This document shows, piece by piece, positions 4,159 to 33,485 of a DNA stretch of 60,242 bases. Numbering within the stretch: the first letter of the stretch is position 1; each line of letters opens with the position of its first letter. Source of the DNA: a virus. Its lineage: Duplodnaviria; Caudoviricetes. The stretch lies in the IMG/VR virus record IMGVR_UViG_3300036861_000387, positions 1 to 60,242 of that record; one strand, given 5' to 3'. A program made the translations under genes and the position numbers. The notes beneath the pieces were generated by a model. The model worked only from the letters and a program-made list of their open reading frames with translations, was not told where the DNA came from and did no database searches.

Positions 4159-5152
4159 TCAGGCTCCTTCCGGTCGGTAGCGGTAGCCCACGACCCGGCC
4201 GTCGCCGTCGGTGACGGCGGTCACATCCTGGGGGTCGAGCAGGACGCCGATGGTGGGTCGGCGCCAGGCGCTGACGGTGGCCTTGAACTCGCCCCAGGCC
4301 GCGTGGATGGCGATGCTGGCGAGCACGGCGGCGAAGCCCTCGGCCCATGCCCGCTGGTCGCCGCCCGGCACCAGGACGTCGGCGGCCAGCAGCCGGTCGC
4401 GCAGCGCCCGGGTCGCCGCGGCGGTGGCTCGGGCCAGGTCGGGGTCGATGTGGGTGCCCGATGTCATAGGCCATCCTCGGCGTGCTCCTCAGCCCACTTC
4501 CGCAGCGTCTGCTTGGCGCTGGCGACATCGGCGATGCTGACGCCCTTGCGGCTCTCGCCCCGCAGGTAGTTGTCGTACAGCTCGTTGCAGACCTCGGCGA
4601 CCCGCCTGGTAGCCGCCTCGGTCGCGGCTTTGAACTCGCCGTGCATCTGCTCGACCTCACGTTTGACGACGGCGTCGAGGTGGTCGACGACGGCGTCCTG
4701 CATGAGCCGGGCGATGCCTTGCTCGGCGTCCCGCTGGGCTTGCTTCAGGTCCTTGATCGTGGCGCGGAGGTCGCGGGTCGCCTCGCGGGCCTGCTCGATC
4801 AGGGTGAGCAGGTCGGGGCCGGGCGTCGGGCGGCTCACCCGCCGCACCTTCCCTGCTCGCTCAGCGTCTGGATGCGCCGCAGGATGACCCGCATGGCCTC
4901 CAGGTTCGGCTCGACCTCGGCGTCGTGGCCGTCGCGAACCCCGCCCTTCCAGACCATGTGATTGGTGACGTACTGCTGACGCAAGTCGCCGCAGCCGGTC
5001 GCTCGAGCTACCGCATCCAGGTCGGCCTGCCGGTCGACGGCGGGGTCGGGCAGCAGCGGGGTGTTGGCGTAGTCGGTGGCCTGGGCGATCCCGAACGCGG
5101 CCAGCAGCAGCACCGCCGACACGGCCAGGACGAGGCGGGTCGGGCGGGTCAC
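4159..5152 (-). other. Three small genes (4159-4467; 4464-4838 coiled-coil; 4835-5152 with signal peptide/TM)
   Basis: Overlapping starts and stops; hydrophobic N-terminus RLVLAVSAVLLLAAFGIAQA in the 4835-5152 product. Confidence 0.65.
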
Positions 5153-10444: not shown

Positions 10445-10873
10445 TCACGGCCCGGCCGCCTTGTCGCGCTCGGCGATGGCCTCCAGCTCGGCCAGTTGCT
10501 CCTCCCGCGATCTGCCCGCTGGCGGCTCGCTGGCATCCGGTGGCAGGCGGCGCAGCAGGTTGCGCATGGCCAGCCGGAACGACGCCGGTGGCGGTCCACC
10601 ACCGGAGTTCGGGTCGCGGGCCTCGATGGCGGGACGGTCGGACGGCTCGGCGGCCTGGTCGCGGGCGTTCAGCACCATGGCATCCAGCAGCTCGGCCAGG
10701 GTCGGGCGGAACCGCTGCTCGCGGCGGCAGCGGCGAACCGCCCGCCACACACGCTCGGCCGGGTACTCGGCCAGTTCGGTGAACCACTCGGCGGCCGTAG
10801 GGGGCTCAACCTGCTGGCCCGGGAAGCTCGCGTTGAGCTTGTCCACGATCCCGGTCCACTCCGTGCGGGTCAT
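10445..10873 (-). CDS. Replicative helicase loader/inhibitor (G39P-like)
   Basis: MTRTEWTGIVDKLNASFP..AEWFTELAEY..VWRAVRR..FRPTLAEL, directly downstream of the initiator. Confidence 0.7.
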   Translation of the reverse strand: MTRTEWTGIVDKLNASFPGQQVEPPTAAEWFTELAEYPAERVWRAVRRCRREQRFRPTLAELLDAMVLNARDQAAEPSDRPAIEARDPNSGGGPPPASFRLAMRNLLRRLPPDASEPPAGRSREEQLAELEAIAERDKAAGP

Positions 10874-11786
10874 CGCTGTCGCCTCCTTCCTGCTGCTCAG
10901 CCCAGTTGCGTAGCGCCTGGTGGGTGCTGAGCATCTGGGTGGTGTGCTTGCCGAGCACCACCGGTCGGCCGTTGCGGGCGTAGTCGCGCATCCGCTCCAG
11001 GATGTTGACGGGCTTGCGCTTTGAGCCCATGTGCAGCAGCTGCGCGAGGTCGTTCTGCTGGGCGCGTTCCGGCCAGGGGTCGTTGACCCAGCCTCGAGCG
11101 GCGTCCTCCACGTCCTCGCGGTCGTAGCGCGTAAGGGCGGCCTTGACCGCGTCGCGTCTTGCCTCGGTGAGCCTTGGTCGGCTCCCGGATGGCAGCGTTG
11201 CTTTCCAGGCGTCGAAGACGGCGCGGATGTCTTCGCTGTCTGGTCGGGCTGGCGCTGCCAGCGCGACGACGGTGTTGACCTTCCCTCTGCTATCGCTCTG
11301 TTCTGTTACTTCTACTTCTATGGGGCCGGACGGGACATTGGGTCCCTCCGGACGCCCGCTAGTGTCCGGTCGGACGTTGCCGGACGGGGGGTTGGACGGC
11401 GGTTCGGGTCCATCTGGACGCTCCTTCGCCTTGTCTCGTTCCCTCCGTTTCCGCGCGGCCTCATCCGCACGCCGGCTATCGCGTTCCTGGCTGGACTCGT
11501 TGTGCTCGAGGAAGTCGTGGATCTCCCAGCCACCCTCGACCGGCTCCCATAGGCCAGCCTTGACCAGCTCCTCCGCGAGCATGTGGTGGCTCGGCCCGTC
11601 GCCGTAGTCGTCGAGCTCGACCAGGCGCCGCAGCATGGGCTGTGCGACGTACCCGTCCGTCTCGCGCCGGTTGGCGTAGGCGATCGAGGCGATGTAGAGC
11701 ACGGTCGCAGCGTGGGAGAGGTCGACCACCTTCGGATTCTCGAAGAAGTACAGGTCGAGCCGGAAGTACGCCTTGATACGCGCCAT
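10806..11786 (-). CDS. Phage replication initiator (RepA/O-like)
   Basis: YFRLDLYFFENPKV N-terminus, LVKAGLWE..GWEIHDFLEHN, coiled-coil, low-complexity linker and C-terminal VFDAWK domain. Confidence 0.8.
   Translation of the reverse strand: MARIKAYFRLDLYFFENPKVVDLSHAATVLYIASIAYANRRETDGYVAQPMLRRLVELDDYGDGPSHHMLAEELVKAGLWEPVEGGWEIHDFLEHNESSQERDSRRADEAARKRRERDKAKERPDGPEPPSNPPSGNVRPDTSGRPEGPNVPSGPIEVEVTEQSDSRGKVNTVVALAAPARPDSEDIRAVFDAWKATLPSGSRPRLTEARRDAVKAALTRYDREDVEDAARGWVNDPWPERAQQNDLAQLLHMGSKRKPVNILERMRDYARNGRPVVLGKHTTQMLSTHQALRNWAEQQEGGDSDDPHGVDRDRGQAQRELPGPAG
11285..11420. repeat. Probable replication origin (iterons) within the initiator gene
   Basis: About six copies of (C/T)GGACG with inverted GTCC copies, next to an AT-richer pyrimidine tract CTGTTCTGTTACTTCTACTTCTAT. 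Confidence 0.6.
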
Positions 11787-11838
11787 CAACCACCTGCCTT
11801 GGACCGGCCGGCGGGCGCAATCCGAGTCGGGAATTGGG

Positions 11839-13742
11839 TCATGGGGCGACCGCTTCCGACTCATCAATTGGCTGGCTGACTGGGATCAGCGCCACCTCGC
11901 CGCCGCAGTCGGGGCAGGGATCGTAGAGATAGCCGCGGCGTTCGCCTTCCCACTCGCACGCCTCGCGGATGATCTGAACGCCTGGCACCCAGACGTAGTC
12001 GACCGGTTCGATGCAACGCACGTTGGCGCTCACGGCGACCCGCCTCCGTCCCCCCGCGGCGACCCGCCGCCCGCGTTCCCACCCGTCTCGGGTGCCAGCC
12101 GGATGATGTCTGGGCGGCAGGATTCGCAGCGGCAGTCCGGCGCATGCGGCGTGTCATCGGTCAGGTCCAGCAGGGTTGGGTCGGCTGGCCAGCAGTGTTC
12201 GCAGATCGTGTGGGTGCCGATGCCGATGTGGCAGCAGCAGGTGCACGGGCCGAGAGTGGCCGTCATGGCGACCCGCCGCCCGCGTTCCCGACCCGGGCGC
12301 GCGTCCCGGTATGGAATGGCGGGCGAATCACCTCGCGTGCGTGCAGCGCGAACTGCCTGCCGTCCGTGGTGTCGATGTAGAGGTCATCTGGGCCCACGAA
12401 TGCCTGCTCGAACTCGGGTGGCAGGCCTTCCTCTTCGCCGAGAAGGGCCGAGAGCACGATCCGCAACACATCCTTTGGATTCACGACCTACCTCCGTCCC
12501 CGACCCACAGGTCGACCAGCAGCCCGGCCAGCAGCCCCAGGTCGGCGAGGGCCGCAGACACCAGCGGGTCGCCCCAGGTGTGGGGGAACAGTCGCCAGCA
12601 CAGCAGCGGCGCGCCCATGCCGACGGCGACGGTGGCCAGGCCGGCGATCACAGGGCCGCCTTCCCGGGCTGGTCGAACTGGTTGGTGGCGACCAGCCGGA
12701 TCTCGAACAGCATGGCGACGGCCTGTGCCCGGGTGGGGCCGATTGGCGAGGCTTCGAGCAGCCGCCCGATGGCGGCCAGCTTCTCCCGTTCCGCCCGCAG
12801 CTCGGCGACCACAGCCAGCGCCTTTACCGCGATCTCGCCGATGACCGACCCGTCGAGCGACAGGTTCTGCCACTGCTCGAAGTACGCCTGCATAGCGTCC
12901 AGGTCGACCCGCTCGGCGCCCATCACGCCACCCCCTCGGCCTGCTGGTCGTAGGTGAGGGCGGCGTCTACCTCAGCCAGCGTTTCCGCCATGTCTCGGAC
13001 TGGTACGCCGCGCACTGCGGCAACGAAGTTGTCCCGGGTGCGCTCCAGCGCCAGCCGTAACGCCTCTCGCTGCTTGCGGGCCTCGCGCAGCTCGGCGACC
13101 AGGGCCGGCACATCGGCTGCTGACTCCTCAATGGCAACCCACGGATCGACCTTGGCCGCGTCCACCCGGGCCTGTACAGCGTCTAGGTCGATACGTTCGG
13201 CGCCCATCACGCCACCTTCCTGACCCGCTCGGCGACCGCGGCGGCCTTGCGGTACTGGTAGGTGCGCCATGACGCCCGCCGGCAGGTCCAGCAGCGCCGC
13301 CGGCCGCTGCCGTTCTCCAGGTAGACATTGGCGCCGCTGAGCTTGTGGCCGCGCTGACAGTGGCTGCGCTGCTTGCGCTGCGGCGGGACCGGGACGTACC
13401 GCATGTAGACGAGGGTGGGCTTGTTGGTGAACGGCGCCCGGATGGTCGGGTCGCGGAAGCAGCCGCAGTCGCAGGGGCCGCCCCAGACGAGCAGGTCGCA
13501 GCATTCGCAGTCGGCTTCCCGGCAGGCACCGCACATGAGAAACGGCGGGGCGGCGGTCATGGTTCCCGCCCCTGGCCGTGCAGCATGACCAGCGTGGCTG
13601 CCTCGTCGGCCTGCTCGTCACGGAGCTCGGCCGCCCACTGCGCCCAGGTGGGCATGCCCTTGGTGGCGAACTTCGCTCGCCAACGCTCGTATCGCTGAGC
13701 CCAACGGTTGGCGTCGACGATGCGGGTCTCCTCGGGGGTCAT
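11839..13742 (-). other. Cluster of small coupled hypothetical genes, including the paralogous pair 12648-12926 and 12923-13210 (MGAERxDLDA) and zinc-finger protein 13207-13560
   Basis: Overlapping starts and stops; CxxC motifs; HCQRGH..NVY..RRCWTC finger like the C-termini of the HNH proteins. Confidence 0.65.
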
Positions 13743-19114: not shown

Positions 19115-20087
19115 CGGCCGCCACCTCGTCGCCCCAGACCTCGAACCCGTCGCGCTGGCCCCGCTCGAACATCGCCAGCCGCGGACCCGGGCTTGCCTGG
19201 CAAACCCGCTCGTAGAAGACGTCCGGCTTGCGGCTATGGCCCTGCACGGGCGCGGCGAAGTCCAGCCGCAGGCCGAGCTGGTCCAGCGGCAGCGATCCGA
19301 TGCGGCCGAAGAGCACGTGCTCGGTCGAGTACATCCACGAGAACGGGGTGATGCCGACGTTCTTGACCCAGGTCATCACGCACTGGTAGCGGGCGCCCCA
19401 GCGGTCCAGCAGGTCCAGACCATCGGGCAGGAACCGATGGGTAACCCAGAGGTAGACGTGGCAGCCGGCTTCGTCGGCGAGGTCGGGCACGGGAAGCGCG
19501 CCGATCTCGGCCAGGCTCATCGTCTGGTAGTCGAGGTCCTCCTGGTTGGTGCGTTCCAGCCGCTCGATCTTCTCGATGGGCCACGGCGGGTCGATGGTGA
19601 TGGCCCGGTAGGTCCCGGGCGGCAGCGGCACCTCCGGCTCCGGCTCATCGAAGAACCGGCGGGCGAACTCGACCGCGCCGCGCTCGGTGACAGGCCGCTC
19701 CTGGTCGTGGAGCTGGTCCTTCCACGCCTGGTACTCGTCGTCGGGGATGCGGCCGATGAGCTGCCACCGCTGCCCCACCCGCTCATTGATGGCGGCCTGC
19801 TCGAGCGCCTGGCGGTACTCGGACCCGCCCGACTCGTGGTCGGCTGGGTCGTGGTAGCCCGCGCCGCCCTTGTCCTTCTCGAGCACGGCGAGCATCTGGC
19901 CGGCCCGGCGGGCGGCGTCCACCTTGAACTCGGCCCACGCTAGCCAGTCGGGACGTTGCAGCTTGCGGGCGTAGGCGCGGACGATCTCGGCGCGGTCGAT
20001 GACCGACTTCACCCGGGCCACGTTGTCGGCCTGGGCGAGCGCCCGGCGTGCGGCGTCGACGCTCTCGACCTGGGCCAGCTCGCTCAT
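19104..20087 (-). CDS. MT-A70-family N6-adenine methyltransferase
   Basis: YRAITIDPPW, YQTMSLAEI, VYLWVT, TEHVLFG, HSRKPD motifs. Confidence 0.9.
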   Translation of the reverse strand: MSELAQVESVDAARRALAQADNVARVKSVIDRAEIVRAYARKLQRPDWLAWAEFKVDAARRAGQMLAVLEKDKGGAGYHDPADHESGGSEYRQALEQAAINERVGQRWQLIGRIPDDEYQAWKDQLHDQERPVTERGAVEFARRFFDEPEPEVPLPPGTYRAITIDPPWPIEKIERLERTNQEDLDYQTMSLAEIGALPVPDLADEAGCHVYLWVTHRFLPDGLDLLDRWGARYQCVMTWVKNVGITPFSWMYSTEHVLFGRIGSLPLDQLGLRLDFAAPVQGHSRKPDVFYERVCQASPGPRLAMFERGQRDGFEVWGDEVAADAS

Positions 20088-20344
20088 CCGGCCGCCTTCC
20101 CGGGGTCGACGGAGTTGAGAGCGTCGGCAAGTAGTTCGTTCGCCGGCTCAGTCAGCAGCTCATCGAGCGGCACGCCGAGGGCGTCGGCGAGGGCGCGCAC
20201 AGTGGACAGCGGCGGCTCCTTCACGCCGCGGGTGCCGGTCTCGTAGTTCGAGATGGTCTTGCTGGTGAGACCGACGCGCCGTGCCAGCTCGTCCTGGCTC
20301 CAGCCCTTCGCCTCGCGAAGCTGCTTGACGCGCTGTCCGATCAA
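20084..20344 (-). CDS. Cro-like XRE HTH protein
   Basis: VKQLREAKGWSQDELARRVGLTSKTISNYETG; first gene of the leftward lytic operon, divergent from the repressor; AAGGAG RBS with TTG start. Confidence 0.85.
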   Translation of the reverse strand: MIGQRVKQLREAKGWSQDELARRVGLTSKTISNYETGTRGVKEPPLSTVRALADALGVPLDELLTEPANELLADALNSVDPGKAAG

Positions 20345-20377
20345 GAGGACTCCTTCGGGCTGCCGCTTGGTGCGGGC

Positions 20378-20406
20378 ACACTAGAACAGCCGTGCTAGGC
20401 TGTCAA
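20378..20406 (-). promoter_or_regulatory. Leftward early promoter (sigmaA type)
   Basis: TTGACA-17 nt-TAGTGT on the minus strand. Confidence 0.75.
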
Positions 20407-20429
20407 GGGCGACAGCCGAAGATGGTTGG
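20386..20429. promoter_or_regulatory. Tandem operators
   Basis: ACAGCC-N6-GGCTGT perfect palindrome (20386-20403) overlapping the promoter spacer; second copy ACAGCC-N6-GGTTGG (20412-20429). Confidence 0.7.
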
Positions 20430-20431
20430 CC

Positions 20432-20459
20432 TTGACGGACAGTCCCACACCTGTATCAT
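20432..20459 (+). promoter_or_regulatory. Rightward repressor promoter
   Basis: TTGACG-16 nt-TATCAT upstream of the AAGGAGG RBS and ATG at 20508. Confidence 0.6.
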
Positions 20460-20507
20460 CAGCACACGTGTTCCACTGACAGCCGGTCCAGCAAGGAGGA
20501 CGACGCG

Positions 20508-20933
20508 ATGGGAGCGCGAGAGTTCGGCCACTTGGTCGAGCAAGCCATGGCCAAGAAGGAGATGTCTCAGGCCAGACTCGCCGTGCTGGTGGGTATCTTG
20601 CCGGAGGGCAGGGTGCTCAATGAGACCCAGATCCGCCGCATCCGTGAGGGCAGTCGTCGGCTTGACGAGGTGCTCGTCAGTCGGCTGATCGGTCTGCTCG
20701 ACCTCGACCCGGCCGAAGCCTGGCACGCGGCCGGGCTCTGGCCGCAAGGGCTCGACCCCGAGGATCTGCGAGACATCTCGGAACTACGGGCGGCCCGCCT
20801 GACGGCGGCGAGTCGGGCCGCGTCGCCTGAGGGGGCTTCGCTCGCCGCCCCTGTCTCTTCTTCGTCGAATCCTGAGGACCTTATGCGCGCTTGTGCGCCA
20901 TCCGCAGGTCAAGAGCTACGTAAGGCGGCCTGA
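20508..20933 (+). CDS. Immunity repressor (XRE HTH) with C-terminal ssrA-like tail
   Basis: FGHLVEQAMAKKEMSQARLA..ETQIRRIREG; divergent from cro, immediately upstream of the integrase; ends RKAA. Confidence 0.75.
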   Translation: MGAREFGHLVEQAMAKKEMSQARLAVLVGILPEGRVLNETQIRRIREGSRRLDEVLVSRLIGLLDLDPAEAWHAAGLWPQGLDPEDLRDISELRAARLTAASRAASPEGASLAAPVSSSSNPEDLMRACAPSAGQELRKAA

Positions 20934-21997
20934 TGCCGGTCGCGGTTGTCCCCCTTGTGGCCGACACGCAATCGGCAGAACTAGAGAGCCTCGTGACGTT
21001 TCGGCCGCCTGGGGCGTATACCACGTTGCGCGCAGCCGCATGGGGGGGGATGCGGATGACGGTCCCATCCGCACGGACAGCCTGGAAGCTCTACGAGGAG
21101 GATCTGGCGCTTGGCCGCCTCGGCAAGCGCCGCCGGCCCAAGACCATCAAGGGCTACCAGTTCGTCGTGCTGGATTTCTGGGCGTTCATCCACCCGATCC
21201 CCTGGACCCACATCACCCCGGGGGACCTGGACCGCTACCTGTCGCGTCCCGCCCGGCAGGGCGGCCGCCGCCCCGGCGCCCCGCTGGCCCCCAACTCCCG
21301 GTCGCTGTACTCCGGCGTGATCTGCGCGTTCTACGACTGGTCGGTGCAGCGCAAGCTCCTGAAGCGTAACCCCCTGGAAGGGGTGCGGCCGGAGCCGAAG
21401 GTGGAGCCGCCCGCCCGCGGGCTGGAGCTGGAGCAGGTCGGGGTACTGCTGGCCGCAACGGCCCACCGGCCCCGCACCCACCTCGCGGTCGCGTTGGCGT
21501 TCTTCGCGCTGCTACGAAGTGGGGAGATCGCCCGGTTGCGGGTCGAGGACATCGACCTCAGGGCCGGGGTGCTGGTGGTGCATGGCAAGGGTGGCTATGT
21601 CGACGCCGTCCCGGTCCACTTCCGGCTGCGGCCGCTGCTGACCAGGTTCCTGGACGGCCGGCCCCCCACTGGACCGGTGGTCGAGTCGCTGACCCAGCCG
21701 GGCCGCCACGTCAGCTCAAGGACGGTGTCGCGGCTGATCGGGCAGGCGATGGCCGAGCTCGGCTGGTCCGAGAGCGCGCATGTACTCCGGCACTCGGCTG
21801 CCTACCTGATCCTGGAGGCGACCGGGAACGTCTACGCGGTGTCGCGGTTGCTGCGCCACCGGCGGCTGTCCTCGACCGAGCGGTACGTACGCAGAGCAGA
21901 CCGGCGGCTGGCAGCGGACCTCGCCAGCCTGCCCGACCCGCGCCAGCCCACCAGCCGACCAGCTACCAGTTCGTCCCAGCCTAGGAGTTCGTCATGA
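20933..21997 (+). CDS. int: Tyrosine recombinase/integrase (XerC/D-like, no arm-binding domain)
   Basis: LLRSGEI (R), HGKG (K), HVLRH, RLLRH, TERY catalytic motifs. The start may be 20933 or about 21050-21056. Confidence 0.93.
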   Translation: MPVAVVPLVADTQSAELESLVTFRPPGAYTTLRAAAWGGMRMTVPSARTAWKLYEEDLALGRLGKRRRPKTIKGYQFVVLDFWAFIHPIPWTHITPGDLDRYLSRPARQGGRRPGAPLAPNSRSLYSGVICAFYDWSVQRKLLKRNPLEGVRPEPKVEPPARGLELEQVGVLLAATAHRPRTHLAVALAFFALLRSGEIARLRVEDIDLRAGVLVVHGKGGYVDAVPVHFRLRPLLTRFLDGRPPTGPVVESLTQPGRHVSSRTVSRLIGQAMAELGWSESAHVLRHSAAYLILEATGNVYAVSRLLRHRRLSSTERYVRRADRRLAADLASLPDPRQPTSRPATSSSQPRSSS

Positions 21998-22227
21998 CCG
22001 GACCTGGCCGCTCCCGCGGCTCCCGCAACCAGCCGCTTCCCGGCCGGTGGCTGCGTGCCGCCGAGGCCGCCGAGATCTTGCACGTGTCCAGCAAGACGGT
22101 GCAGCGGTGGGCCAAGGAGGGCAAGCTGCCCTACCAGGCCACCCTCGGCGGCCACCGCAGATACAACGAGGCCGAGATCCGGGCGCTGGTGCACACCGTG
22201 CGGGTCGGCGAGGAGGTGGCCCGATGA
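21994..22227 (+). CDS. BldC-like MerR/HTH_17 protein (possible excisionase/RDF)
   Basis: LRAAEAAEILHVSSKTVQRWAKEGKLPYQATLGGHRRYNEAEIRAL. Confidence 0.85.
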   Translation: MTGPGRSRGSRNQPLPGRWLRAAEAAEILHVSSKTVQRWAKEGKLPYQATLGGHRRYNEAEIRALVHTVRVGEEVAR

Positions 22228-22565
22228 CCCTCGGACCCGACTGGCGGAAGGGCAGCTTCAGCCACACCAACGGTTGCGTCGAGCCCCGCTGGGTCAAGGC
22301 CACCGCCAGCGGCACCAGCAACTGCGTCGAGGTCACCCACAACACCGACGAGGGCGTCGTCCTCGTCCGCGACACGGAGCACCCGGGCGGTGGCGTGGTC
22401 GCCTTCACCCCGGCGCAGTGGGCGCTGCTGTTGGACGATGTCGCCGCCGGGCACTTCCACTGGTCGCGGTTCGCCCCGTTGCGGTTCGACGCGGCCGAGC
22501 GAACGGCCTTTGAGCAGGGTGTCGCCGCTGGCGAGTTCGAGCTATCCGAGGGGATGCCGGCATGA
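22224..22565 (+). CDS. DUF397-domain protein (BldB/AbaA-ORFD-like)
   Basis: Duplicated WRKGSFS..GCVE and WVKATAS..NCVEV, then VLVRDTE and FTPAQWALLL. Confidence 0.9.
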   Translation: MTLGPDWRKGSFSHTNGCVEPRWVKATASGTSNCVEVTHNTDEGVVLVRDTEHPGGGVVAFTPAQWALLLDDVAAGHFHWSRFAPLRFDAAERTAFEQGVAAGEFELSEGMPA

Positions 22566-23596
22566 CCGGCCCGGAGCTGGACCTGCTGGAGGGTGGCGTC
22601 GGCAACGCCGACCTGTACGCCGGGCTGCTGCGCGGCGGCGGCCGGGCCGTGCATGCCAGCCGCTGCGAGAACCCCTACGGGCAATTCGGCCGCGCCCCGT
22701 TCATGGTGACCGCGGCCGCCGACTACGTGAGCCGCCTAGCCGTCCAGGCCAGGACCAAGGCCCGCGGCCAGTTGATCGGCAAGGTCGACTATCAACGCTA
22801 CTACATCCTGCAGGTATCCCGGTGACCGCGACCCGCCGCGTCAAGGTCCGCTGCGCCGGGCGGCCCGTCGTGACCCGCAGCCGGGAGGACCCGACCGACT
22901 ACGACGAGCTGCCGTCGTGCGGCTGGTCGGGGGAGCGCGCCGCCGGCCCGAACACCACCCGCCGCCCCTGCCCGGACTGCGGCGGGCGGGTGGAGCTGGT
23001 GGGTCGCACACCAGACCCGACCCTGGCCATGGTCGCCCGAAGGAGGCTGCACGGATGAGCGAGCTCGACGAGGTTGCCTTGACGGCGGCGCACCTGGCCG
23101 TTGAGGACGCGCTGGTCGACTTCCGCGACAACCGCATCAGCACGCTGGGGCCACGCAACGGCTTCGTGATCTACGAGCGCGACGGCCAGCTGTCCGGCGT
23201 CATGCGGCTCGGCACCCGCGACGGCCTCCGCATCGCTATCACGGCGTACCTGGCGGCCCTGGCCGGCGACATCGACCCGCGCGTCCCGCGCCCCGATCCG
23301 ACCAGGAGCACGTGACCATGACCCCGCGACCCTGCACCAGGCCCGACGGCGGCTGCGGCGAGCCGATCATCGAGGTCACCACCATCGCTGGCCGCAAGCA
23401 GGTGCTCAACCCCAAGCCGGTCAACGGCGTGGTGATGGTCAACGCCGAGGACACACTGGTGCTCAGCGGTCGCGGCGATAGCTGGCCCGACGTCCGCTCC
23501 CGGGTCGTGCCGGTCTACGTCGACCACCATGCGACCTGCGCGACCTGGCTGACCCGGATCAAACGGGAACGGGCCGCCGAGGCGGGTGGCCGATGA
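22562..23596 (+). other. Four small coupled hypothetical genes (22562-22825, 22822-23058, 23055-23315, 23312-23596)
   Basis: ATGA/GTGA overlaps; two have zinc-binding motifs. Confidence 0.65.
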
Positions 23597-24060
23597 CTCA
23601 ACTGCGACTGAGTGACCAAGAGCGCCAGTTCTGGGATCTAGTGGAGCTGACAGAGGGATGCTGGATCTGGCACGGACTCGTCAACCGCTATGGCTATGGC
23701 ACGCAGTGGTGGAACGGGCGTCGGTTGAGTGCGCATCGCCTCGCCTACACCTTGGCGGTCGGCCCAATCCCCGAGGGCCTGACGCTCGACCATGTGAAGG
23801 CGCGCGGCTGCACCTCTCTCCTCTGCGTCAAGGCGATCCCTGATTGGTTCGGGCCAGCGCATCTTGAGCCGGTGACCATGCGCGAGAACGTGCTGCGTGG
23901 CGAGAGTCCAGCCGCCATCGGTGCCCGCAAGACCCACTGCCCAAAGGGCCACCCCTATGACGAGGCCAACACCTATCGGTACCGCGGCAAGAGGAGCTGT
24001 CGAGCATGCAATCGGGCGGCTGTTGCCGCACTGAGGGTCAGGAAGTTGGCTCGGCCATGA
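23593..24060 (+). CDS. HNH endonuclease
   Basis: FWD..GCWIW..YG..AHRLAY..LDH..C..CV..HLEPVT..ENVLRG..KTHCPKGH. Confidence 0.92.
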   Translation: MTQLRLSDQERQFWDLVELTEGCWIWHGLVNRYGYGTQWWNGRRLSAHRLAYTLAVGPIPEGLTLDHVKARGCTSLLCVKAIPDWFGPAHLEPVTMRENVLRGESPAAIGARKTHCPKGHPYDEANTYRYRGKRSCRACNRAAVAALRVRKLARP

Positions 24061-24801
24061 CCGAGATGCGGGGCAATTGGGAGCCGGACAACCACGGCTG
24101 GACACACCAGCCGGCCGAGCGGACCTGCCGCTACTGCCGCCGCGGTGTCATGCACACCAAGGCCGAGCACGACCTCATCTATTCGGTCGACCGGCAGGCC
24201 CTGCTCGACTGGGAACGCGAGGAGTCCGAGCGGCAGGTCAAGGCGGACAACGAGCTGCTGGAGCAGTTCGTCCGCGACGGCATGACCGAGGACGAGGCCG
24301 CCGACGAGCTGTGGCGGTGGATGGCGCAGGGCAGGGGCCTGGTCGAATCGAGGCCGCGACCATGAGGCGCGCCCTGGTCGTCCTGCTCGCCACCGGCATG
24401 GCCGGCCCAAGCGGTGCCGCCGACCCACCTCGGCCCCCCGGGCGGGCGGCGGCGCCTTCCCTGATCGAGCACGAGTTCGAGCCGTGGGAGTACAGCAACG
24501 GCCAAGTGATCTGCATCCACTGGGATCCGCTGCGGCTGCGGCTGTGCGAACGCCCCGAGGTCGAGCACGCCTCAGCGCAGGTCGATGAGGAACACTCATG
24601 AAGCGAGCGGGCATGCGGGAGTGCCCGGCATGCGGCACGCCGGACCCCGAGGCCGCCTGGACAGATGACGGACTCACCTGCCTGGAATGCGGACACATTG
24701 TCACCGCGGCTGAGCAGGAGGCGGGACTAGCCTCGCAGGTCGGCGGCGAGCCGGTCGAGGATGGCGAGGGCGTCGGGGCCGACGGCGGCCAGGTCGAGTA
24801 G
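24057..24801 (+). other. Three small genes (24057-24365; 24362-24601 with signal peptide-like N-terminus; 24598-24801 zinc ribbon)
   Basis: Coupled overlaps; CPAC..CLEC motif. Confidence 0.55.
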
Positions 24802-25593
24802 CGCCTTGAACGCCTGCCCGTAGCGGGCGACGTCAGCGAGGTTGCGGACAGTGAGTCCGGCCGTCAGCGTCTCGACCAGCACGAGGTCATCGGCGTCATC
24901 GGCGCGCTCCAGGAACGCCGAGAAGCCCTGCCACGCCCACACCGGCTCCTCGATCTCCAAGGGGAGGATGCCGAGCAGCACGTTGGGCATCCTGGCGGCC
25001 TGGGCGAGCCGGTCGAGCTGGGCGGCCATGACCTCGCGGGGCACGAACCGCCAGCGCAGCCCTGCCTCAGTCATCAGAAACTCGAACCGACGGCCAGGCC
25101 GGTACAGCAGCGTCTGCCTGGCGACCCGGGCCGCCACCGCCTCGGCGACCTCGGCATCGCTCTGCCCGTCCAGCTTGGCGCGGGCCCGGTAGACCGCGCG
25201 GGCATAGTCGGGGACCTGGAGCAGCCCGTGAACCAGCACCGGGTAGTAGCTGCGGTTCAAGGCGGCTGACTCCTCCAGGCCGGCGACCTCCTGCTGCAGC
25301 GCCGCCAGCCGCTCGGGCCGGCCCCTCCAGGACACCGCCTCGGTCGCGGCCACCTCGGCCAGCGCGTCGAGCCCGACGCGCTGCTGGGTGGTGGCGCCGG
25401 TGGCGGCCGCCCAGCGGTCGATCTGTTCCGGCGACGGGAGCTGCCGGCCGTTTTCCCAGCGGCTGACGGTGGACTGCGCGACCCCGACCCGCTCGGCAAG
25501 CTGGATGCTGGTGAGGCCGGCGGCGTCGCGGAGGTCCCGGAGCGCCCGCCCGAGTTGGCGGCGGCGCTCCGAGGCCTCGGCGAAGGGGCTCAT
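24727..25593 (-). CDS. XRE-HTH + DUF5753 regulator (WhiJ/Scr1-like)
   Basis: RRRQLGRALRDLRDAAGLT..VSRWENG plus LVHGLLQVPDYARA, AVAARVARQ, FLMTEAGL, MAAQLDRL motifs. Confidence 0.9.
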   Translation of the reverse strand: MSPFAEASERRRQLGRALRDLRDAAGLTSIQLAERVGVAQSTVSRWENGRQLPSPEQIDRWAAATGATTQQRVGLDALAEVAATEAVSWRGRPERLAALQQEVAGLEESAALNRSYYPVLVHGLLQVPDYARAVYRARAKLDGQSDAEVAEAVAARVARQTLLYRPGRRFEFLMTEAGLRWRFVPREVMAAQLDRLAQAARMPNVLLGILPLEIEEPVWAWQGFSAFLERADDADDLVLVETLTAGLTVRNLADVARYGQAFKALLDLAAVGPDALAILDRLAADLRG

Positions 25594-26087
25594 GCCGGCA
25601 GCAGGAACTCCTGGAGCGGCACTGAGCACGCCATGGCTAGATCGCGCTGCCAGCGGTACTGCTGGACTGCGGCGGGATCGATCACGTCGCGGCCACCGAG
25701 GAACTCCCCGTCTGGGCTGTAGTCCAGCGCCCACACACGCGCATGGTCGAACAGCCAGAAATCGGTCGCGAGGTGGGCTAACGCCGGGTGCTGGGTGCGG
25801 TCGGCGATGCGGATGTCCTCGCCGGCCGCCAGGTGGGCAGGGCCAATTTCGACCCGCCAGCGCAGGTAGGGCACGAGTGGCGGCGTGACGACCAGGACGC
25901 GGCCGATGCTGCGGCCCGCCTGGGTCGCGGCGGCGACCTGCTCGAGCCACTGCTGGCGCTGCTCGCCTTGGCGCGCGGTCGGCGGGTGGCCCTGCTGGAA
26001 CCGCTGGAATTCCAGCCGGTCAGGCCCGTAGAAGGCGCGCGTCTCCAGCCGCCACGCCGACCGCTCGAACCGATCGAAGAAGCTCAC
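25590..26087 (-). CDS. DUF6879-family protein
   Basis: FERSAWRLETRAFY..GRVLVV..YLRW..AGEDIR..DFWLFD..LDYSPDGEF. Confidence 0.8.
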   Translation of the reverse strand: MSFFDRFERSAWRLETRAFYGPDRLEFQRFQQGHPPTARQGEQRQQWLEQVAAATQAGRSIGRVLVVTPPLVPYLRWRVEIGPAHLAAGEDIRIADRTQHPALAHLATDFWLFDHARVWALDYSPDGEFLGGRDVIDPAAVQQYRWQRDLAMACSVPLQEFLLPA

Positions 26088-26266
26088 CCCTGGCGCAGCC
26101 TCTCGGCGGCCTCGGCCAGCATCCCGGCCGGGATCTTGACGGTCTGCTCGCCGTCGCTCAGCGGTAGCCCCGCCACGACCTGGCCGCGTACCACGATTTC
26201 GTCGGTCTCGTCCTTGACCCAGATCCCCGGGCAGTTGTCGGCACTGCACCCGCTGAGTTCTCGCAT
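26084..26266 (-). CDS. Small CxxxxCP protein associated with DUF6879 operons
   Basis: GCSADNCPGIW..IVVRG..GEQTVKIP; GGGAGG RBS. Confidence 0.75.
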   Translation of the reverse strand: MRELSGCSADNCPGIWVKDETDEIVVRGQVVAGLPLSDGEQTVKIPAGMLAEAAERLRQG

Positions 26267-28796: not shown

Positions 28797-29186
28797 TGGA
28801 CTACATGAGCGAAGGCGAGCTGCTCTGGGCCGCCTACGCCACCGATGGCAAGTCCCGGCACGGGAAGCTGATCCGTCCACCGGTCGCGCCGCCGAGACGA
28901 TCAGGCAGGGACCGGTCCTGATGCTGGCCTCCAATGTCGTCCTCGCTGAGTCCAGCTACTACGTCAGTCTGGCCGTCGCGTTCGTGCTCGGCATGGCCAT
29001 CGCCCGATCGTTTGTGCGCCCAGAGCGCGGCGGGGGAACCCGACGGCGGCGGCGTCGGCGATGACCGCCGCGCTGTGTCTGCTGGCCGGGCTGGTCGCCG
29101 TCGTGCTGCCGCTGCTCGGGTGGTGGGACGACCGCCGCCGACGCCGAGCTGCCGTGTCTGGCCAGGACAGCAAGGGGCACCCGTGA
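28796..29186 (+). other. Three tiny coupled genes (28796-28921; 28921-29064 and 29061-29186 are single-TM with poly-Arg tails)
   Basis: TGATG/ATGA overlaps; manual translation. Confidence 0.5.
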
Positions 29187-29404
29187 CCTGGTGGGAGCGC
29201 GCCGAGTGCCGCGACGCCGACACCAACGCCTTCTACCCGGAGGCCGGCGGGCTGACCGAGATCGCCGAGCGGCTGTGCGAGCGATGCCCGGTGATGACCG
29301 AATGCCTGGACTGGGCGCTCGACCACGGCGAGGTCTGGGGTACTTGGGGAGGCCTGTCCGAACGGGAACGGCGGACGCTTCGGCGTCACCGCAGGGTGGC
29401 GTAA
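29183..29404 (+). CDS. whiB: WhiB-family Fe-S transcription factor
   Basis: WWERAEC..FYP..LCERCPVMTECLDWAL..WGTWGGLSERERR. Confidence 0.95.
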   Translation: MTWWERAECRDADTNAFYPEAGGLTEIAERLCERCPVMTECLDWALDHGEVWGTWGGLSERERRTLRRHRRVA

Positions 29405-29430
29405 CATGCTACTCCGGCCACTCTCCGCGA

Positions 29431-29458
29431 ATGGTTGATAATCCTCATTACGTTAACC
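29431..29458 (+). other. dif-like XerC/XerD recombination site
   Basis: ATGGTTGATAA-TCCTCA-TTACGTTAACC has 11-6-11 architecture, is intergenic and is AT-rich. Confidence 0.7.
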
Positions 29459-29556
29459 TGTCGCATGTCGGACCCTTCCCCCGCCGAGTAGGATGACGCC
29501 ATGAACGATGCGGGAGCTGGCTGCGACTGGCATGCCCTGGCCGGGTCGTGGCGCTG

Positions 29557-30764
29557 ATGGACCTGACTGTCGGGCAGGTCGTCATCCGCACGGCGCTGTT
29601 CTGCGTAGCAGCACTGCTGGTGACTGGGCTGCTATGGCTCGGCACCCAGGTCGCCATCCGACGCGGCTGGATCGTGCGGCGCAGCGAGCCGATCCGGGAA
29701 TGGGTCGAACTCGGCGAGGCGACCCGCGACGTAGGTCGAGCCATCAGGGCATCGCTGCCCTCCCGACTTCGGCGCTGGCTGTGACCGACCCACCCGCCTC
29801 GCGTCCCGCGCCGGCAGTGGCGATCCGAGCCGCGATTGACTGCCCGCGCGCCAAGACATGGATGACGCCGTGCATCGCCCGGGACGGCGCAACTGCGCTC
29901 GACGACGCCGATGCAGCCGACCCTGAGCAGCGGCGCGAGTGTGTCGGCTGTGGCGCCGATCCTCGGGAGCTACTGCTCGACCTGTCCGAGCGGTATCCAC
30001 CAGCGCGGCGCTACCGGCAGACGCACGATCCGAAGGCCTGCGCTGACACGCTGACCAGGATGGTGGCGGAGTATGTCGAGCGCTGACCCGCCCGCCTCGC
30101 GTCCCGCGCCGGCCCCCGACCCGCCCCCCGATCCCGCGGACGGCTGGGAGGCGCGGATGGCCGAACGTGCCGCCGCCCGACGCGCTGAGCAGGAAGAAGC
30201 TGAGCAGCAGCACGCAGGCCATCAGCGACCACCCGACCGGTCGACGTGGCCCGTTCCTGAGCACTTGAAGGGCTATAGCGCCCGAGACGTGTTCCTGTGG
30301 TACATGATGGATGGCTGGCGCCGCATCCTCGGTGGCGAACCGAAGGTGCTGTTCGACCACGACTTCGGCTTCCATGTCATCAGCGATGGCATCTGGCAAC
30401 TGAAGCTTGCGAATCTCGATGAGTTCCCTGACGAGCGATTCCCGGAGCTGGGGCCATGACCGACCCGCCCCGCGACCCCGACCTGCTGGCCGCGATCAGG
30501 GCGCGGTGGTTCACCGATGGCCTGCACCGCGCGGAATACTGGGCCGACCTTGCCAGCCGAGACGTGCCGCTGCTGGTGGACCTAGCCGACAAGCGGGGCC
30601 GCGAGGTCGGCCGGCTGCGCGACCTGCTCGCCCGCCTGGAATGGGGCGATGGCCGCAACCGGTGTTCTGCATGCGGCGAGCATAAGGCCCGGGGCCACGA
30701 ACCCGGCTGCTGGCTGGCCGAAGCCTTGACCAGCAACGAAGAAGCACCCCCCAGCCGAAGCTGA
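29557..30764 (+). other. Four coupled hypothetical genes (29557-29784 TM; 29781-30086; 30073-30459; 30456-30764 with CxxC..HEPGC)
   Basis: Overlapping starts and stops; shared N-terminal DPP motif. Confidence 0.65.
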
Positions 30765-32123: not shown

Positions 32124-32320
32124 CAGCCCGCCTTCAGGTACTTGTCGCACCAAGCACCATTGTGGTCGGTGTGGGCTTTGCAGCGGGCACACCAAGTCGT
32201 CGCGCCGGTGAGGTTGCCGAGCAGCAGGCGGGTCCAGCCTTCCGGCCCGGCGAGCCGCACCGGGTCGCCTTGGTTCCACATGCGGCGGACCTCCTCGTCG
32301 GGCAGGTCGTTCTCGTCCAT
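32123..32320 (-). CDS. Small zinc-binding hypothetical protein
   Basis: WCARCKAHTDH..WC; coupled to the lysin stop. Confidence 0.5.
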   Translation of the reverse strand: MDENDLPDEEVRRMWNQGDPVRLAGPEGWTRLLLGNLTGATTWCARCKAHTDHNGAWCDKYLKAG

Positions 32321-33156
32321 TAGGGGAGTTCCACGTCGGCGACCGGCGGCGGCGGGGCCGCCTCGAAGTGCAGCAGGCCGGTCACGTCCAGGTCGCCCTC
32401 GAGCCGGCCGAGCGCCAACCCGTCGACGGCCGCCTTGAGCGCGTCGACCTTGGCCCGGAGCTGCACGAGTTCGTCGGCGGTGGGTTGGACGGCCGCCTCG
32501 ATGGTCCGCACGCGGGCGAACAGCAGGTCGACGGTCTGGTCGGGTGTGGTGGTGCCGGGCACGATGAGGCCCTTGTAGATGGCCTCGAGCTGCCGGGCCT
32601 GCTCGTCGGATAGGGCCATGTCAGCCTCCTCGCCTGCCACGATCCGGGGCAGCAGGACCTCGTCGAACTGGCGGATGCGGACCCGGCCCGGGCATGATTT
32701 GGCGACCGGGGTCCAGTGGCTGGGGCTGCCGAACAGGGTGTGGTAGCCGATCCCGGCCGAGTCCCAGGCGGGGCAGCGCCGCAGCGGGACGGCGTGCAGC
32801 CGGTTGATCCGCCAGGCGATCCACGCCAGCGAGTCCAGTTGCGCGTCGGTCCATGGCTGGCTGTCGGGGTCGCCGCGGTCTTCGGTCTCCACCGAGATCG
32901 CGAAGGCGTTGGCGTCGAGGTTGGCGTCGGCCTGCCGGGTGGTGTCGACGAGCTGCCAGATCTCGCCGTCCTGGGCGACGATGAAGTGGGACTCCAGGTT
33001 GGACCGGTCGCGGAACATGAGGTAGGCACCCTCGGCCGACCCGACGATCGAGTGGTAGATCAGCACCCGCGGGACGATGGCTGGCTCGGTCTGGTTCTCG
33101 GGCAGCAGGCGCAGCCGGCCACCGTGGGGCGAGCTGGTGAAGTCGAGCAGGGCCAT
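32320..33156 (-). CDS. Endolysin, N-acetylmuramoyl-L-alanine amidase (Amidase_2)
   Basis: LIYHS..ESHFIVAQDGEIWQLV..ISVETE..GIGYH..KSCPG; C-terminal coiled-coil. Confidence 0.9.
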   Translation of the reverse strand: MALLDFTSSPHGGRLRLLPENQTEPAIVPRVLIYHSIVGSAEGAYLMFRDRSNLESHFIVAQDGEIWQLVDTTRQADANLDANAFAISVETEDRGDPDSQPWTDAQLDSLAWIAWRINRLHAVPLRRCPAWDSAGIGYHTLFGSPSHWTPVAKSCPGRVRIRQFDEVLLPRIVAGEEADMALSDEQARQLEAIYKGLIVPGTTTPDQTVDLLFARVRTIEAAVQPTADELVQLRAKVDALKAAVDGLALGRLEGDLDVTGLLHFEAAPPPPVADVELP

Positions 33157-33485
33157 TAGGCGTGCACCGCGACCAGCTCGGCCGGGGCCTCGGCGGGGTC
33201 GGTCGGGAACACGCAGCGGCGCTCCTCGGGCACCCATTCTGACCCGGGCATGGTGCAGTCGGGCCGCAGCGGATGCACCTGGAGCGCGTGCCAAGGTTCC
33301 AGCGCCTCGGTGGCGTGGCGGTCGCAGGCGACGGCGTTCTCGCAGGTGGCGTCCCAGATGATGTGCCAGGCGCCGGGCTTGCCGCAGAGCTGTGACCACT
33401 CGCCGATGGCACGCTGGCAGGTCCGGGCGTCCCAGCCCTGCTGTGGGCCGAGGGGTGGCCGGTCGGTCGGGGTGTAGTCGCTCAT
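33156..33485 (-). CDS. Cys-rich hypothetical protein
   Basis: Coupled to the lysin start (TAATG). Confidence 0.6.
   Translation of the reverse strand: MSDYTPTDRPPLGPQQGWDARTCQRAIGEWSQLCGKPGAWHIIWDATCENAVACDRHATEALEPWHALQVHPLRPDCTMPGSEWVPEERRCVFPTDPAEAPAELVAVHA

What the first reader, a model, noticed from the sequence alone, without database searches (positions are those of the whole stretch)
29431..29458. A chromosome-dif-like XerCD site in a tailed actinophage
Seen: an intergenic AT-rich island in a very GC-rich genome reads ATGGTTGATAA-TCCTCA-TTACGTTAACC, an 11-6-11 site with the inner TAA...TTA symmetry. Established: E. coli dif is GGTGCGCATAA-TGTATA-TTATGTTAAAT. The right arm matches the XerD arm at 8/11 positions and the left arm keeps the inner ATAA. 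Inference: the phage may use host XerCD (or its own Xer-like recombinase) to integrate at dif like an IMEX element, or to resolve dimers of a circular, plasmid-like prophage. The site is about 7.4 kb from the recombinase gene and separates two accessory blocks. Xer hijacking is mainly known from proteobacterial elements, so this would be unusual in a tailed actinophage.
Basis: partly seen in the sequence, partly recalled or inferred. Interest (0 to 1): 0.78.

Follow-up and report, generated by a model that had tools for sequence, protein, structure and literature searches.

The report
Degenerate dif-like site in an actinophage
A soil actinomycete phage carries one 28-base sequence that really does resemble the site where bacteria untangle their chromosomes, but it departs from that site at two bases that never vary in it, and nothing yet shows that it is used.

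Summary
It is one of the most AT-rich spots in a 70% G+C temperate siphovirus genome. It lies in a 143-nt gap between a whiB gene and a small membrane-protein gene.

It is strongest in the left (XerC-type) arm, not the right. It scores 24-28 bits; the next best site in the genome scores 0.6 bits or less. It has the commonest base at 9 of 15 positions that were not used to find it (p about 0.003).

It is still 14-16 bits below the weakest true dif. It has bases never seen in true sites at spacer position 4 and XerD-arm position 4.

No related phage has it. No integration junction was seen. The phage has its own integrase and excisionase.

A scan of public viral contigs found GC-rich tailed phages with one perfect-arm dif-like site and mostly no integrase, so Xer use by such phages is plausible.

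Verdict: most likely a diverged Xer-type site of uncertain activity (about 0.45). Chance likeness in promoter-upstream DNA is the close rival (about 0.35). Moderately interesting.

The parts
29431..29458 (+). dif-like 28-mer with 11-6-11 layout
   Evidence: Sequence read. Single copy. PWM scores 23.7, 27.9 and 26.6 bits.
29431..29441 (+). Left arm ATGGTTGATAA, XerC-type by position
   Evidence: Has the commonest base of 61 actinomycete dif sites at 10 of 11 positions; position 6 is T, seen in 2 of 61. 10 of 11 identical to the left arm of the dif in L106.
29442..29447 (+). Central region TCCTCA
   Evidence: Positions 1, 2, 5 and 6 carry the commonest bases. Position 3 is C (3 of 61). Position 4 is T (0 of 61). 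The same spacer occurs in genuine-looking dif sites on 7 GC-rich metagenome contigs, but in 0 of 401 sampled genomes of the class.
29448..29458 (+). Right arm TTACGTTAACC, XerD-type by position, degenerate
   Evidence: C at arm position 4, where all 61 true sites have T (this position was fixed by the search pattern). The final CC is seen in 5 of 61 and 1 of 61 sites. One true site ends in AACC.
29405..29547 (.). 143-nt intergenic gap holding the site
   Evidence: ORF map and GC3 frame analysis. No Rfam match and no unusual RNA fold. No sigma-70-type promoter or terminator by consensus scan.
29489..29494 (+). TAGGAT, a possible -10 hexamer 31 nt downstream of the site
   Evidence: The only TAGGAT on either strand of the 60-kb genome. 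Its likeness to the actinomycete -10 consensus is recalled, not tested.
29501..29557 (+). 18-codon mini-ORF starting 6 nt after TAGGAT; its stop overlaps the ATG at 29557
   Evidence: Read from the sequence. The leaderless, translationally coupled arrangement is inference.
29183..29404 (+). whiB-like gene upstream of the site
   Evidence: Pfam PF02467 E 7.5e-22. Homologues at 38-49% identity in 11 of 30 related viral records.
29548..29784 (+). Small membrane-protein ORF downstream (start at GTG 29548 or ATG 29557)
   Evidence: Translation. No Pfam or PHROG family.
20933..21997 (+). Tyrosine recombinase (integrase); the likely start is 21050, giving about 315 aa
   Evidence: PF00589 E 4.4e-19. 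phrog_1 integrase E 2.2e-36. Collinear with the XerA, XerC and XerD models but far below their cut-offs, 85-88 bits against 220-335. Start from GC3 gene calling.
21994..22227 (+). Excisionase-like HTH_17 gene overlapping the end of int
   Evidence: PF12728 E 8.3e-15.
20508..20933 (+). 141-aa ORF with a weak HTH directly upstream of int; possible repressor that holds the integrase's attP
   Evidence: ORF. HTH_31 E 0.011, below cut-off. The rep-int order with a divergent HTH gene matches the integration-dependent immunity layout described in PMC3694055. This is inference only.
20084..20344 (-). Xre/cI-type HTH gene, divergent from the rep-int operon
   Evidence: PF01381 E 7.3e-18.

Best explanation
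The 28-mer is a diverged member of the dif type of Xer recombination sites. It arrived either from a host or plasmid dif-like site or as a phage attachment site. It now sits in the promoter-upstream part of an intergenic gap.

Proposed working, all inferred. Host XerC would bind the left arm, which fits the dif of actinomycete families that host related prophages. XerD would bind the mismatched right arm poorly. Any exchange with a host dif or a sister copy would therefore start on the XerC side, independent of FtsK, or would need an activating factor, as reported for TLCphi and the gonococcal island. The outcome would be a second, Xer-dependent route into the chromosome at dif, or resolution of circular multimers.

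Because the phage also has its own integrase and excisionase, and two normally invariant bases are changed, the site may be only weakly active or already decaying.

Shown: the layout, the arm-by-arm fit, single copy, intergenic position. Not shown: any binding or recombination.
For: - The core pattern matches with 1 mismatch, only here in the window. In 151 host-order genomes (about 1.1 Gb) I counted by eye about 34 non-dif rows with one mismatch, which gives about 0.002 expected per 60 kb.
- PWM scores are 23.7, 27.9 and 26.6 bits; the next best in the window is 0.6 or lower. Expected chance hits are 6e-6 to 8e-5 per genome at 70% G+C, or 2e-4 to 1.3e-3 if only the AT-rich islands are counted.
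- Identity to true sites is 15-20 of 28. True sites share 17-27 of 28 with each other.
- A good XerC arm with a divergent XerD arm is the pattern the review reports for TLCphi attP and difGGI (PMC5357621, passages).
- Xer sites on mobile DNA of this phylum are real. Arthrobacter, Gordonia and Paenarthrobacter plasmids carry intergenic dif-like sites.
- At least 26 GC-rich IMG/VR contigs carry perfect-arm dif-like sites. 24 of 27 such records have no tyrosine recombinase. Several have terminase or tail genes next to the site. In two proviruses the site lies within 1 kb of the record's edge.
Against: - The score is 14-16 bits below the weakest true site, whose leave-one-out minima are 41.5 and 44.0. 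It is also below the four phage-borne sites scored, at 33-47 bits.
- T at spacer position 4 and C at XerD-arm position 4 occur in 0 of 61 true sites. The arm position was fixed by my pattern, so its invariance is partly by construction.
- The three plasmid sites read keep a perfect XerD arm.
- None of 45 related viral records has a site at 1 mismatch or fewer. No whiB-linked AT-rich island follows whiB in 11 relatives (by eye).
- No host dif with this spacer was found in 0 of 401 class genomes. No candidate-like site was found in 0 of 151 family genomes. No attB-like match covered the site in 151 order genomes.
- A contig from the probable source sample runs unbroken across the site, and no junction was listed there; the lists were cut.
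- The phage has its own integrase and excisionase, unlike 24 of the 27 phage records with perfect sites.
Confidence: 0.45

Rival explanations
1. Chance likeness. The AT-rich island is ordinary regulatory DNA: an upstream element or operator of a promoter that drives the downstream membrane-protein operon. No recombinase uses it.
For: - The site lies in a gap between two genes on the same strand.
- The only TAGGAT in the whole genome lies 31 nt downstream, followed 6 nt later by an ATG whose 18-codon ORF overlaps the next gene's ATG. That would put the site at about -70 to -43 of a leaderless transcript.
- AT-rich islands are few (7) and several others are also intergenic.
- Bases never seen in true dif sites occupy two positions.
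- The first stage read very many windows, so some chance look-alikes are expected.
Against: - It needs a coincidence of about 2e-4 to 1.3e-3 per genome even when only AT-rich positions are counted.
- The consensus scan finds no promoter over the site.
- The motif is not repeated elsewhere, as operators often are.
- That TAGGAT is a -10 hexamer rests on recall and was not tested.
Confidence: 0.35
2. The site is the core attachment site, or a secondary target, of the phage's own Xer-like tyrosine recombinase (20933/21050-21997), not of host XerCD.
For: - The recombinase aligns end to end with the XerA, XerC and XerD models. If it starts at 21050 it has no room for an arm-binding domain, so a simple site of about 30 bp would suit it.
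- No non-coding DNA follows xis.
- Three proviruses in IMG/VR have a tyrosine recombinase gene about 0.6 kb from a perfect dif-like site at the record's edge.
Against: - The site is 7.4 kb from int.
- The gene order (HTH ORF, then int, with a divergent HTH gene) matches cassettes in which attP lies inside the gene just upstream of int (PMC3694055, passages).
- The recombinase scores far below the Xer cut-offs.
- It is only 34-35% identical over about 185 residues, at 16-18 bits, to the dif-adjacent recombinases.
- No close homologue was found in IMG/VR or in 151 order genomes at E 1e-40, so no linkage with dif-like sites could be tested.
Confidence: 0.1

Closest known systems
Chromosomal dif of Actinobacteria (the predicted Frankia alni site quoted by Kono et al. 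2011, PMC3025954, and the 61 sites collected here)
   Same: The 11-6-11 layout. The inner GATAA of the left arm. The outer left arm fits the consensus. Spacer positions 1, 2, 5 and 6 fit. The right arm keeps TTA.GT.AA. It is single-copy and non-coding.
   Different: It is on a phage, not at a replication terminus. T at spacer position 4 and C at right-arm position 4 were never seen in true sites. The final two bases are rare. The score is 14-16 bits below the weakest true site.
IMEX attachment sites with a divergent XerD arm (TLCphi attP, gonococcal island difGGI), as described in the review PMC5357621 (passages read)
   Same: The XerC-side arm is conserved and the XerD-side arm is degenerate. 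It is one site on a mobile element of tens of kilobases.
   Different: Those sites share the central region with the host dif, and the elements carry no integrase of their own. Here the host and its dif are unknown, the spacer matches no sampled actinomycete dif, and the phage encodes an integrase and an excisionase. Those elements are proteobacterial.
GC-rich tailed phages in IMG/VR with one perfect-arm dif-like site (found here)
   Same: GC-rich viral genomes. A single site that forms an intergenic AT-rich island. Spacers differ from the usual chromosomal type.
   Different: Their arms are perfect, because the search pattern required it, and they score 33-47 bits. 24 of 27 have no tyrosine recombinase. 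In three the site lies next to the terminase genes. The window's site scores 26.6 bits, lies in an accessory region, and the phage has an integrase.
dif-like sites on actinobacterial plasmids (Arthrobacter pDCT5, Gordonia pGOR1, Paenarthrobacter pTC1)
   Same: Non-coding, single dif-like sites on extrachromosomal replicons of the phylum, with non-chromosomal spacers.
   Different: All three keep a perfect XerD-type arm. Their function as multimer-resolution sites is assumed, not shown here.

Membership tests
dif / Xer core site | Two 11-bp arms around a 6-bp central region | tested here: met
   The inner arm motifs sit at exactly 6-bp spacing.
dif / Xer core site | XerC-side arm fits the host-group consensus | tested here: met
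   10 of 11 positions carry the commonest base of 61 sites. The outer six bases score 4.9 of a possible 7.4 bits with the order PWM, but only 2.6 of 9.5 with the family PWM.
dif / Xer core site | XerD-side arm TTATGT.AAGT, as in all collected chromosomal sites and the three plasmid sites read | tested here: not met
   The arm reads TTACGTTAACC. C at position 4 occurs in 0 of 61 sites. The final CC occurs in 5 of 61 and 1 of 61.
dif / Xer core site | PWM score within the range of true sites | tested here: not met
   23.7-27.9 bits, against leave-one-out minima of 41.5 and 44.0.
dif / Xer core site | Bound and recombined by XerC and XerD | not testable with these tools
   Needs gel-shift and recombination assays.
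IMEX (integrative element exploiting Xer) | No recombinase of its own; relies on host XerCD | tested here: not met
   A tyrosine integrase and an HTH_17 excisionase-like gene are present.
IMEX (integrative element exploiting Xer) | Central region shares homology with the host dif | tested here: inconclusive
   The host is unknown. TCCTCA shares positions 1-2 and 5-6 with the TC(T/G)ACA dif type of the family of G031. An exact or near-exact spacer was found in 0 of 401 class genomes. It does occur in dif-like sites on 7 GC-rich metagenome contigs of unknown taxon.
IMEX (integrative element exploiting Xer) | Integrated copies flanked by dif and a dif-like hybrid site | tested here: inconclusive
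   No integrated copy was found. A source-sample contig is continuous over the site. The reference collections are samples.
Plasmid-prophage multimer-resolution site | Plasmid-type maintenance genes (partition system) on the phage | tested here: not met
   No ParA- or ParB-type hit among the 46 proteins scanned. A replication initiator, a Bet-like annealing protein and a RusA-like resolvase are present. Many small ORFs were not scanned.
Sigma-70-type promoter | -35 and -10 hexamers at 16-18 nt spacing over the site | tested here: not met
   The consensus scan of 28800-30200 found none. A lone TAGGAT lies 31 nt downstream.

The most novel reading that the evidence does not exclude
This siphovirus keeps two routes to lysogeny. 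One is its own integrase with an attP beside int. The other is a TLCphi/GGI-style Xer site, with a host-like XerC arm and a weakened XerD arm, that lets host XerCD place it at dif or resolve its circular multimers. It would belong to a wider, undescribed group of tailed phages of GC-rich hosts, probably actinomycetes, that exploit Xer. The integrase-less IMG/VR phages with perfect-arm sites would be the plain form of that group.
Probability: 0.22. Interest if true: 0.75.

Novelty: new variant of a known kind. Interest (0 to 1): 0.5.

Why it matters
Hijacking of the host's chromosome-dimer resolution machinery is established for filamentous and other small phages and for genomic islands of Proteobacteria. 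My two literature searches (listings only) found no paper describing it for tailed phages of Actinobacteria.

If this site, or the cleaner sites found in passing, is used by XerCD, three things follow:
- Integrase-free lysogeny would extend to tailed phages of a major soil phylum.
- Prophage finders that rely on integrases would miss them.
- dif would become a hotspot to inspect in actinomycete genomes.

The candidate itself is the weaker example. Its value is that it is cheap to test, and that it may show a Xer site decaying, or being kept as a second system, after a phage acquired its own integrase.

Tried and rejected
- One search used a wrong reading frame for whiB and found nothing. It was repeated correctly.
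- No DNA relatives of the locus in INPHARED. The 40-mer against phages and plasmids gave only chance hits in AT-rich coding DNA.
- The exact 20-mer is absent from IMG/VR.
- Close relatives sharing the locus were sought with whiB, the integrase and ORF 30073-30459. The only hit was one whiB at 34% identity. The neighbours of whiB are unrelated in 12 loci, so conservation could not be tested.
- No direct repeat links the int region with the site, so there is no sign that int-to-whiB is an inserted element.
- The idea that a TCGAATCC-containing stretch at about 20866 is a tRNA-derived attP core gave no match in 4 genomes. ARAGORN finds no tRNA in the window. A DNA search with 20760-21060 gave only two weak hits in 151 genomes.
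- A DNA search with 29350-29600 gave no hit covering the site.
- The metagenome scan found no copy with phage flanks.
- Laying contigs of 4 runs showed no joint or loose end at the site among the rows listed, but the lists were cut and the runs are contigs, so this proves nothing.
- The 120 kb around the dif of G107 holds no prophage like G747 or G753 and no second site.
- No second, degenerate site in the four phage or provirus records scanned, nor in proviruses G577 and G578, apart from one 3-mismatch hit.
- No Rfam family and no unusual RNA fold in the gap.

Full report
**What the window is.** The window is a whole IMG/VR virus record of 60,242 bp, with linear ends and a CheckV completeness estimate of 100%. 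G+C is about 70%.
- Structural genes run on the minus strand from about 60.2 to 34.7 kb. They include a large terminase at 58081-59718, with an amidase endolysin at 32320-33399.
- A minus-strand early block at 1-20.3 kb holds a replication initiator, a Bet-like annealing protein, a RusA-like resolvase and two methyltransferases.
- A plus-strand block at 20.5-30.8 kb holds a weak-HTH ORF, a tyrosine integrase, an HTH_17 excisionase-like gene, DUF397, an XRE-DUF5753 regulator (minus strand), DUF6879 (minus strand), DUF2637, an SLT-like lysozyme and whiB.
- By terminase, 60 IMG/VR contigs are related at 60-83% identity. Five prophages in species genomes are related at 59-66%: Crossiella, Sphaerisporangium, Nonomuraea, a Streptosporangiales MAG and one Saccharibacteria MAG.
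- The host is therefore probably a soil actinomycete. It was not identified.

**The observation.** The 28-mer reads exactly as reported at 29431-29458.
- It has 10 G+C in 28 bases. Only 7 of 60,215 windows have as few, and the genome has only seven such AT-rich islands.
- It lies in a 143-nt gap between whiB (29183-29404) and a 78-aa membrane-protein ORF.
- It is single-copy.

**Building a proper yardstick.** Kono et al. 2011 quote a predicted Frankia alni dif (PMC3025954, passages).
- Its conserved core, written GATAA-N6-TTATGT-N-AA, hit exactly once without mismatch in the Crossiella and Nonomuraea genomes.
- In 151 sampled genomes of the order of the Nonomuraea genome, 124 had a match at 1 mismatch or fewer. 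Most were one perfect hit with a TG.ACA spacer. By my reading of the rows, about 34 were one-mismatch hits with non-dif spacers, or about 0.03 per Mb.
- In 151 genomes of the family of the Crossiella genome, 47 had a perfect hit with a TC(T/G)ACA spacer.
- I fetched 61 of these sites, 39 of them distinct 28-mers. Two of the 61 come from genomes flagged as unpublished (G035, G616). Their sequences are not given here.

**How the candidate fares.**
- The core pattern matches it with one mismatch. It is the only match in the window at 2 mismatches or fewer, and 1 of 100 shuffles gave any match.
- PWM scores are 23.7 bits (order set), 27.9 bits (family set) and 26.6 bits (combined). The next best sites in the window score -3.35 and 0.6.
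- Expected chance hits at these scores are 7.6e-5 and 5.9e-6 per 60 kb at 70% G+C. If only about 500 AT-rich positions are allowed at 64% A+T, they are 1.3e-3 and 2.1e-4.
- At the 15 positions that my search pattern did not fix, the candidate has the commonest base at 9 (p 0.003-0.004).
- The fit is best in the left arm, where 10 of 11 positions carry the commonest base and the arm is 10 of 11 identical to the left arm of one true site.
- Identity to true sites is 15-20 of 28. True sites share 17-27 of 28 with each other.

**The evidence against membership.**
- The score is 14-16 bits below the weakest true site, whose leave-one-out minima are 41.5 and 44.0.
- T at spacer position 4 is seen in 0 of 61 true sites.
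- C at right-arm position 4 is also seen in 0 of 61. That position was fixed by my pattern, and no one-mismatch row looked like a dif with that change.
- The final CC is rare, at 5 and 1 of 61, although one true site does end in AACC.
- Three plasmid-borne dif-like sites (Arthrobacter, Gordonia, Paenarthrobacter) keep a perfect right arm while varying the spacer.

**Context tests.**
- None of 45 related viral records (about 1.4 Mb) has a site at 1 mismatch or fewer. One has a 2-mismatch hit.
- whiB homologues occur in 11 of 30 related records. By eye, none of the 11 is followed by an AT-rich gap, and in four a small hydrophobic ORF follows directly.
- Apart from whiB, none of the neighbouring genes is shared. 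The locus is simply not conserved, so the conservation test is uninformative rather than negative.
- No bacterial match covered the site in 151 genomes. No candidate-like site was found in 151 family genomes.
- The spacer TCCTCA occurs in genuine-looking dif sites on 7 GC-rich metagenome contigs, out of 29 pattern hits. It was not found in 401 sampled genomes of the class.
- In the probable source sample a 5,812-nt contig covers 24303-30114 without a difference. The rows shown list no joint at the site. The lists were cut and only contigs were available.

**The phage's own recombinase.**
- The integrase aligns along its length with the XerA, XerC and XerD models, at 85-88 bits against cut-offs of 220-335.
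- It probably starts at 21050, which leaves no arm-binding domain.
- It has no close relative in IMG/VR or in 151 order genomes.
- The order (weak-HTH ORF, then int, with a divergent Xre gene across a 164-nt control region) matches the integration-dependent immunity cassette, in which attP lies inside the gene upstream of int (PMC3694055, passages). By that analogy the integrase's attP would lie at about 20.8-21.05 kb. I could not confirm this.

**The regulatory rival.**
- The gap contains the only TAGGAT of the genome, 31 nt after the site. An ATG follows 6 nt later, and its 18-codon ORF overlaps the ATG of the next gene.
- That fits a leaderless promoter with the 28-mer at about -70 to -43. 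Reading TAGGAT as a -10 hexamer is recall, not a test.
- The consensus scan finds no promoter over the site. No Rfam family or unusual fold was found.

**How common Xer-type sites are in such phages.**
- A 36-mer holding the Nonomuraea dif found no actinophage in INPHARED; all 75 hits were in Vibrio, Bacillus, Aeromonas or Capybara-named records. It did find 9 actinobacterial records among 15 plasmid hits.
- A strict pattern with the chromosomal spacer type found only 4 IMG/VR contigs.
Of the 80 loci returned, 26 have G+C of 0.58 or more, where chance predicts far less than one. Their spacers are mostly not the chromosomal type.
- Of 27 such records, 24 have no PF00589 match.
- Five complete records have no Resolvase-domain match and no tyrosine recombinase above cut-off.
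- In the eight records examined, seven sites are cleanly intergenic AT-rich islands. One overlaps a predicted gene end by 10 nt.
- Terminase, portal-like or tail proteins lie next to four of the sites.
- Two related proviruses carry their single site 466 and 988 nt from the record's edge.
- One free phage genome, one of the two related proviruses and two host-order genomes share the same dif core.
- So tailed phages of GC-rich hosts that probably use XerCD exist. This raises the prior for the candidate. But the candidate differs from them in both telling respects: a degenerate right arm and its own integrase.

**Weighing.**
- A chance look-alike costs about 1e-4 to 1e-3 per genome.
- Degenerate but real Xer-derived sites in such phages may be about as frequent. 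My rough estimate is 1e-4 to 5e-4 per genome.
- I therefore put a Xer-type origin and residual use at about 0.45, pure coincidence in regulatory DNA at about 0.35, and a target of the phage's own recombinase at about 0.10, with the rest open.
- It should not be filed as a dif site or as an IMEX, because tested defining features fail. It may still work like the degenerate-arm IMEX sites.

Noticed in passing
IMG/VR loci L205-L283, e.g. L205 (G753), L267 (G748), L217 (G737), L246 (G747), L249 (G743): At least 26 GC-rich viral contigs carry one perfect-arm actinobacterial-type dif-like site with a non-chromosomal spacer. 24 of 27 such records have no tyrosine recombinase. Several have terminase or tail genes beside the site. 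In two related proviruses the site lies within 1 kb of the record's edge. They look like Xer-dependent tailed phages.
   Followed up: partly
window 20084-21997: The order is a weak-HTH 141-aa ORF, then the integrase, with a divergent Xre gene across a 164-nt gap. This resembles integration-dependent immunity cassettes in which attP lies inside the repressor gene. Here an excisionase-like gene follows int.
   Followed up: partly
window 29489-29557: The only TAGGAT in the genome is followed 6 nt later by an 18-codon ORF whose stop overlaps the start of the next gene. This may be a leaderless, translationally coupled start.
   Followed up: partly
window 11290-11324, inside 10806-11867: An AT-rich island lies inside the replication-initiator gene (phrog_2447, E 1.1e-26). 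It may be the origin of replication.
   Followed up: no
window 5149-7548: A 799-aa DNA methylase (N6_N4_Mtase) carries a LAGLIDADG-like domain in its middle, which suggests an intein or homing-endonuclease insertion.
   Followed up: no
window 22224-26266: A DUF397 gene, an XRE-DUF5753 regulator and a DUF6879 gene sit together in the phage's accessory region. From recall, these are actinomycete chromosomal regulator families.
   Followed up: no
L337-L339 (G577, G738, G578): Three proviruses have a tyrosine recombinase gene at the very edge of the record, about 0.6 kb from a perfect dif-like site. Either the prophage integrated at dif with its own recombinase, or host DNA was included in the record.
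   Followed up: partly
PLSDB record NZ_LT559118.1 (hit H63): An 11.85-Mb Nonomuraea gerenzanensis record is filed among plasmids. It carries the exact dif near its middle, at 6.49 Mb, so it is evidently the chromosome.
   Followed up: no
G033:C17, G154:C1, G076:C77, G119:C3: The same one-mismatch dif-like 20-mer recurs in four genomes of the order, away from their dif. This conserved second site is unexplained.
   Followed up: no
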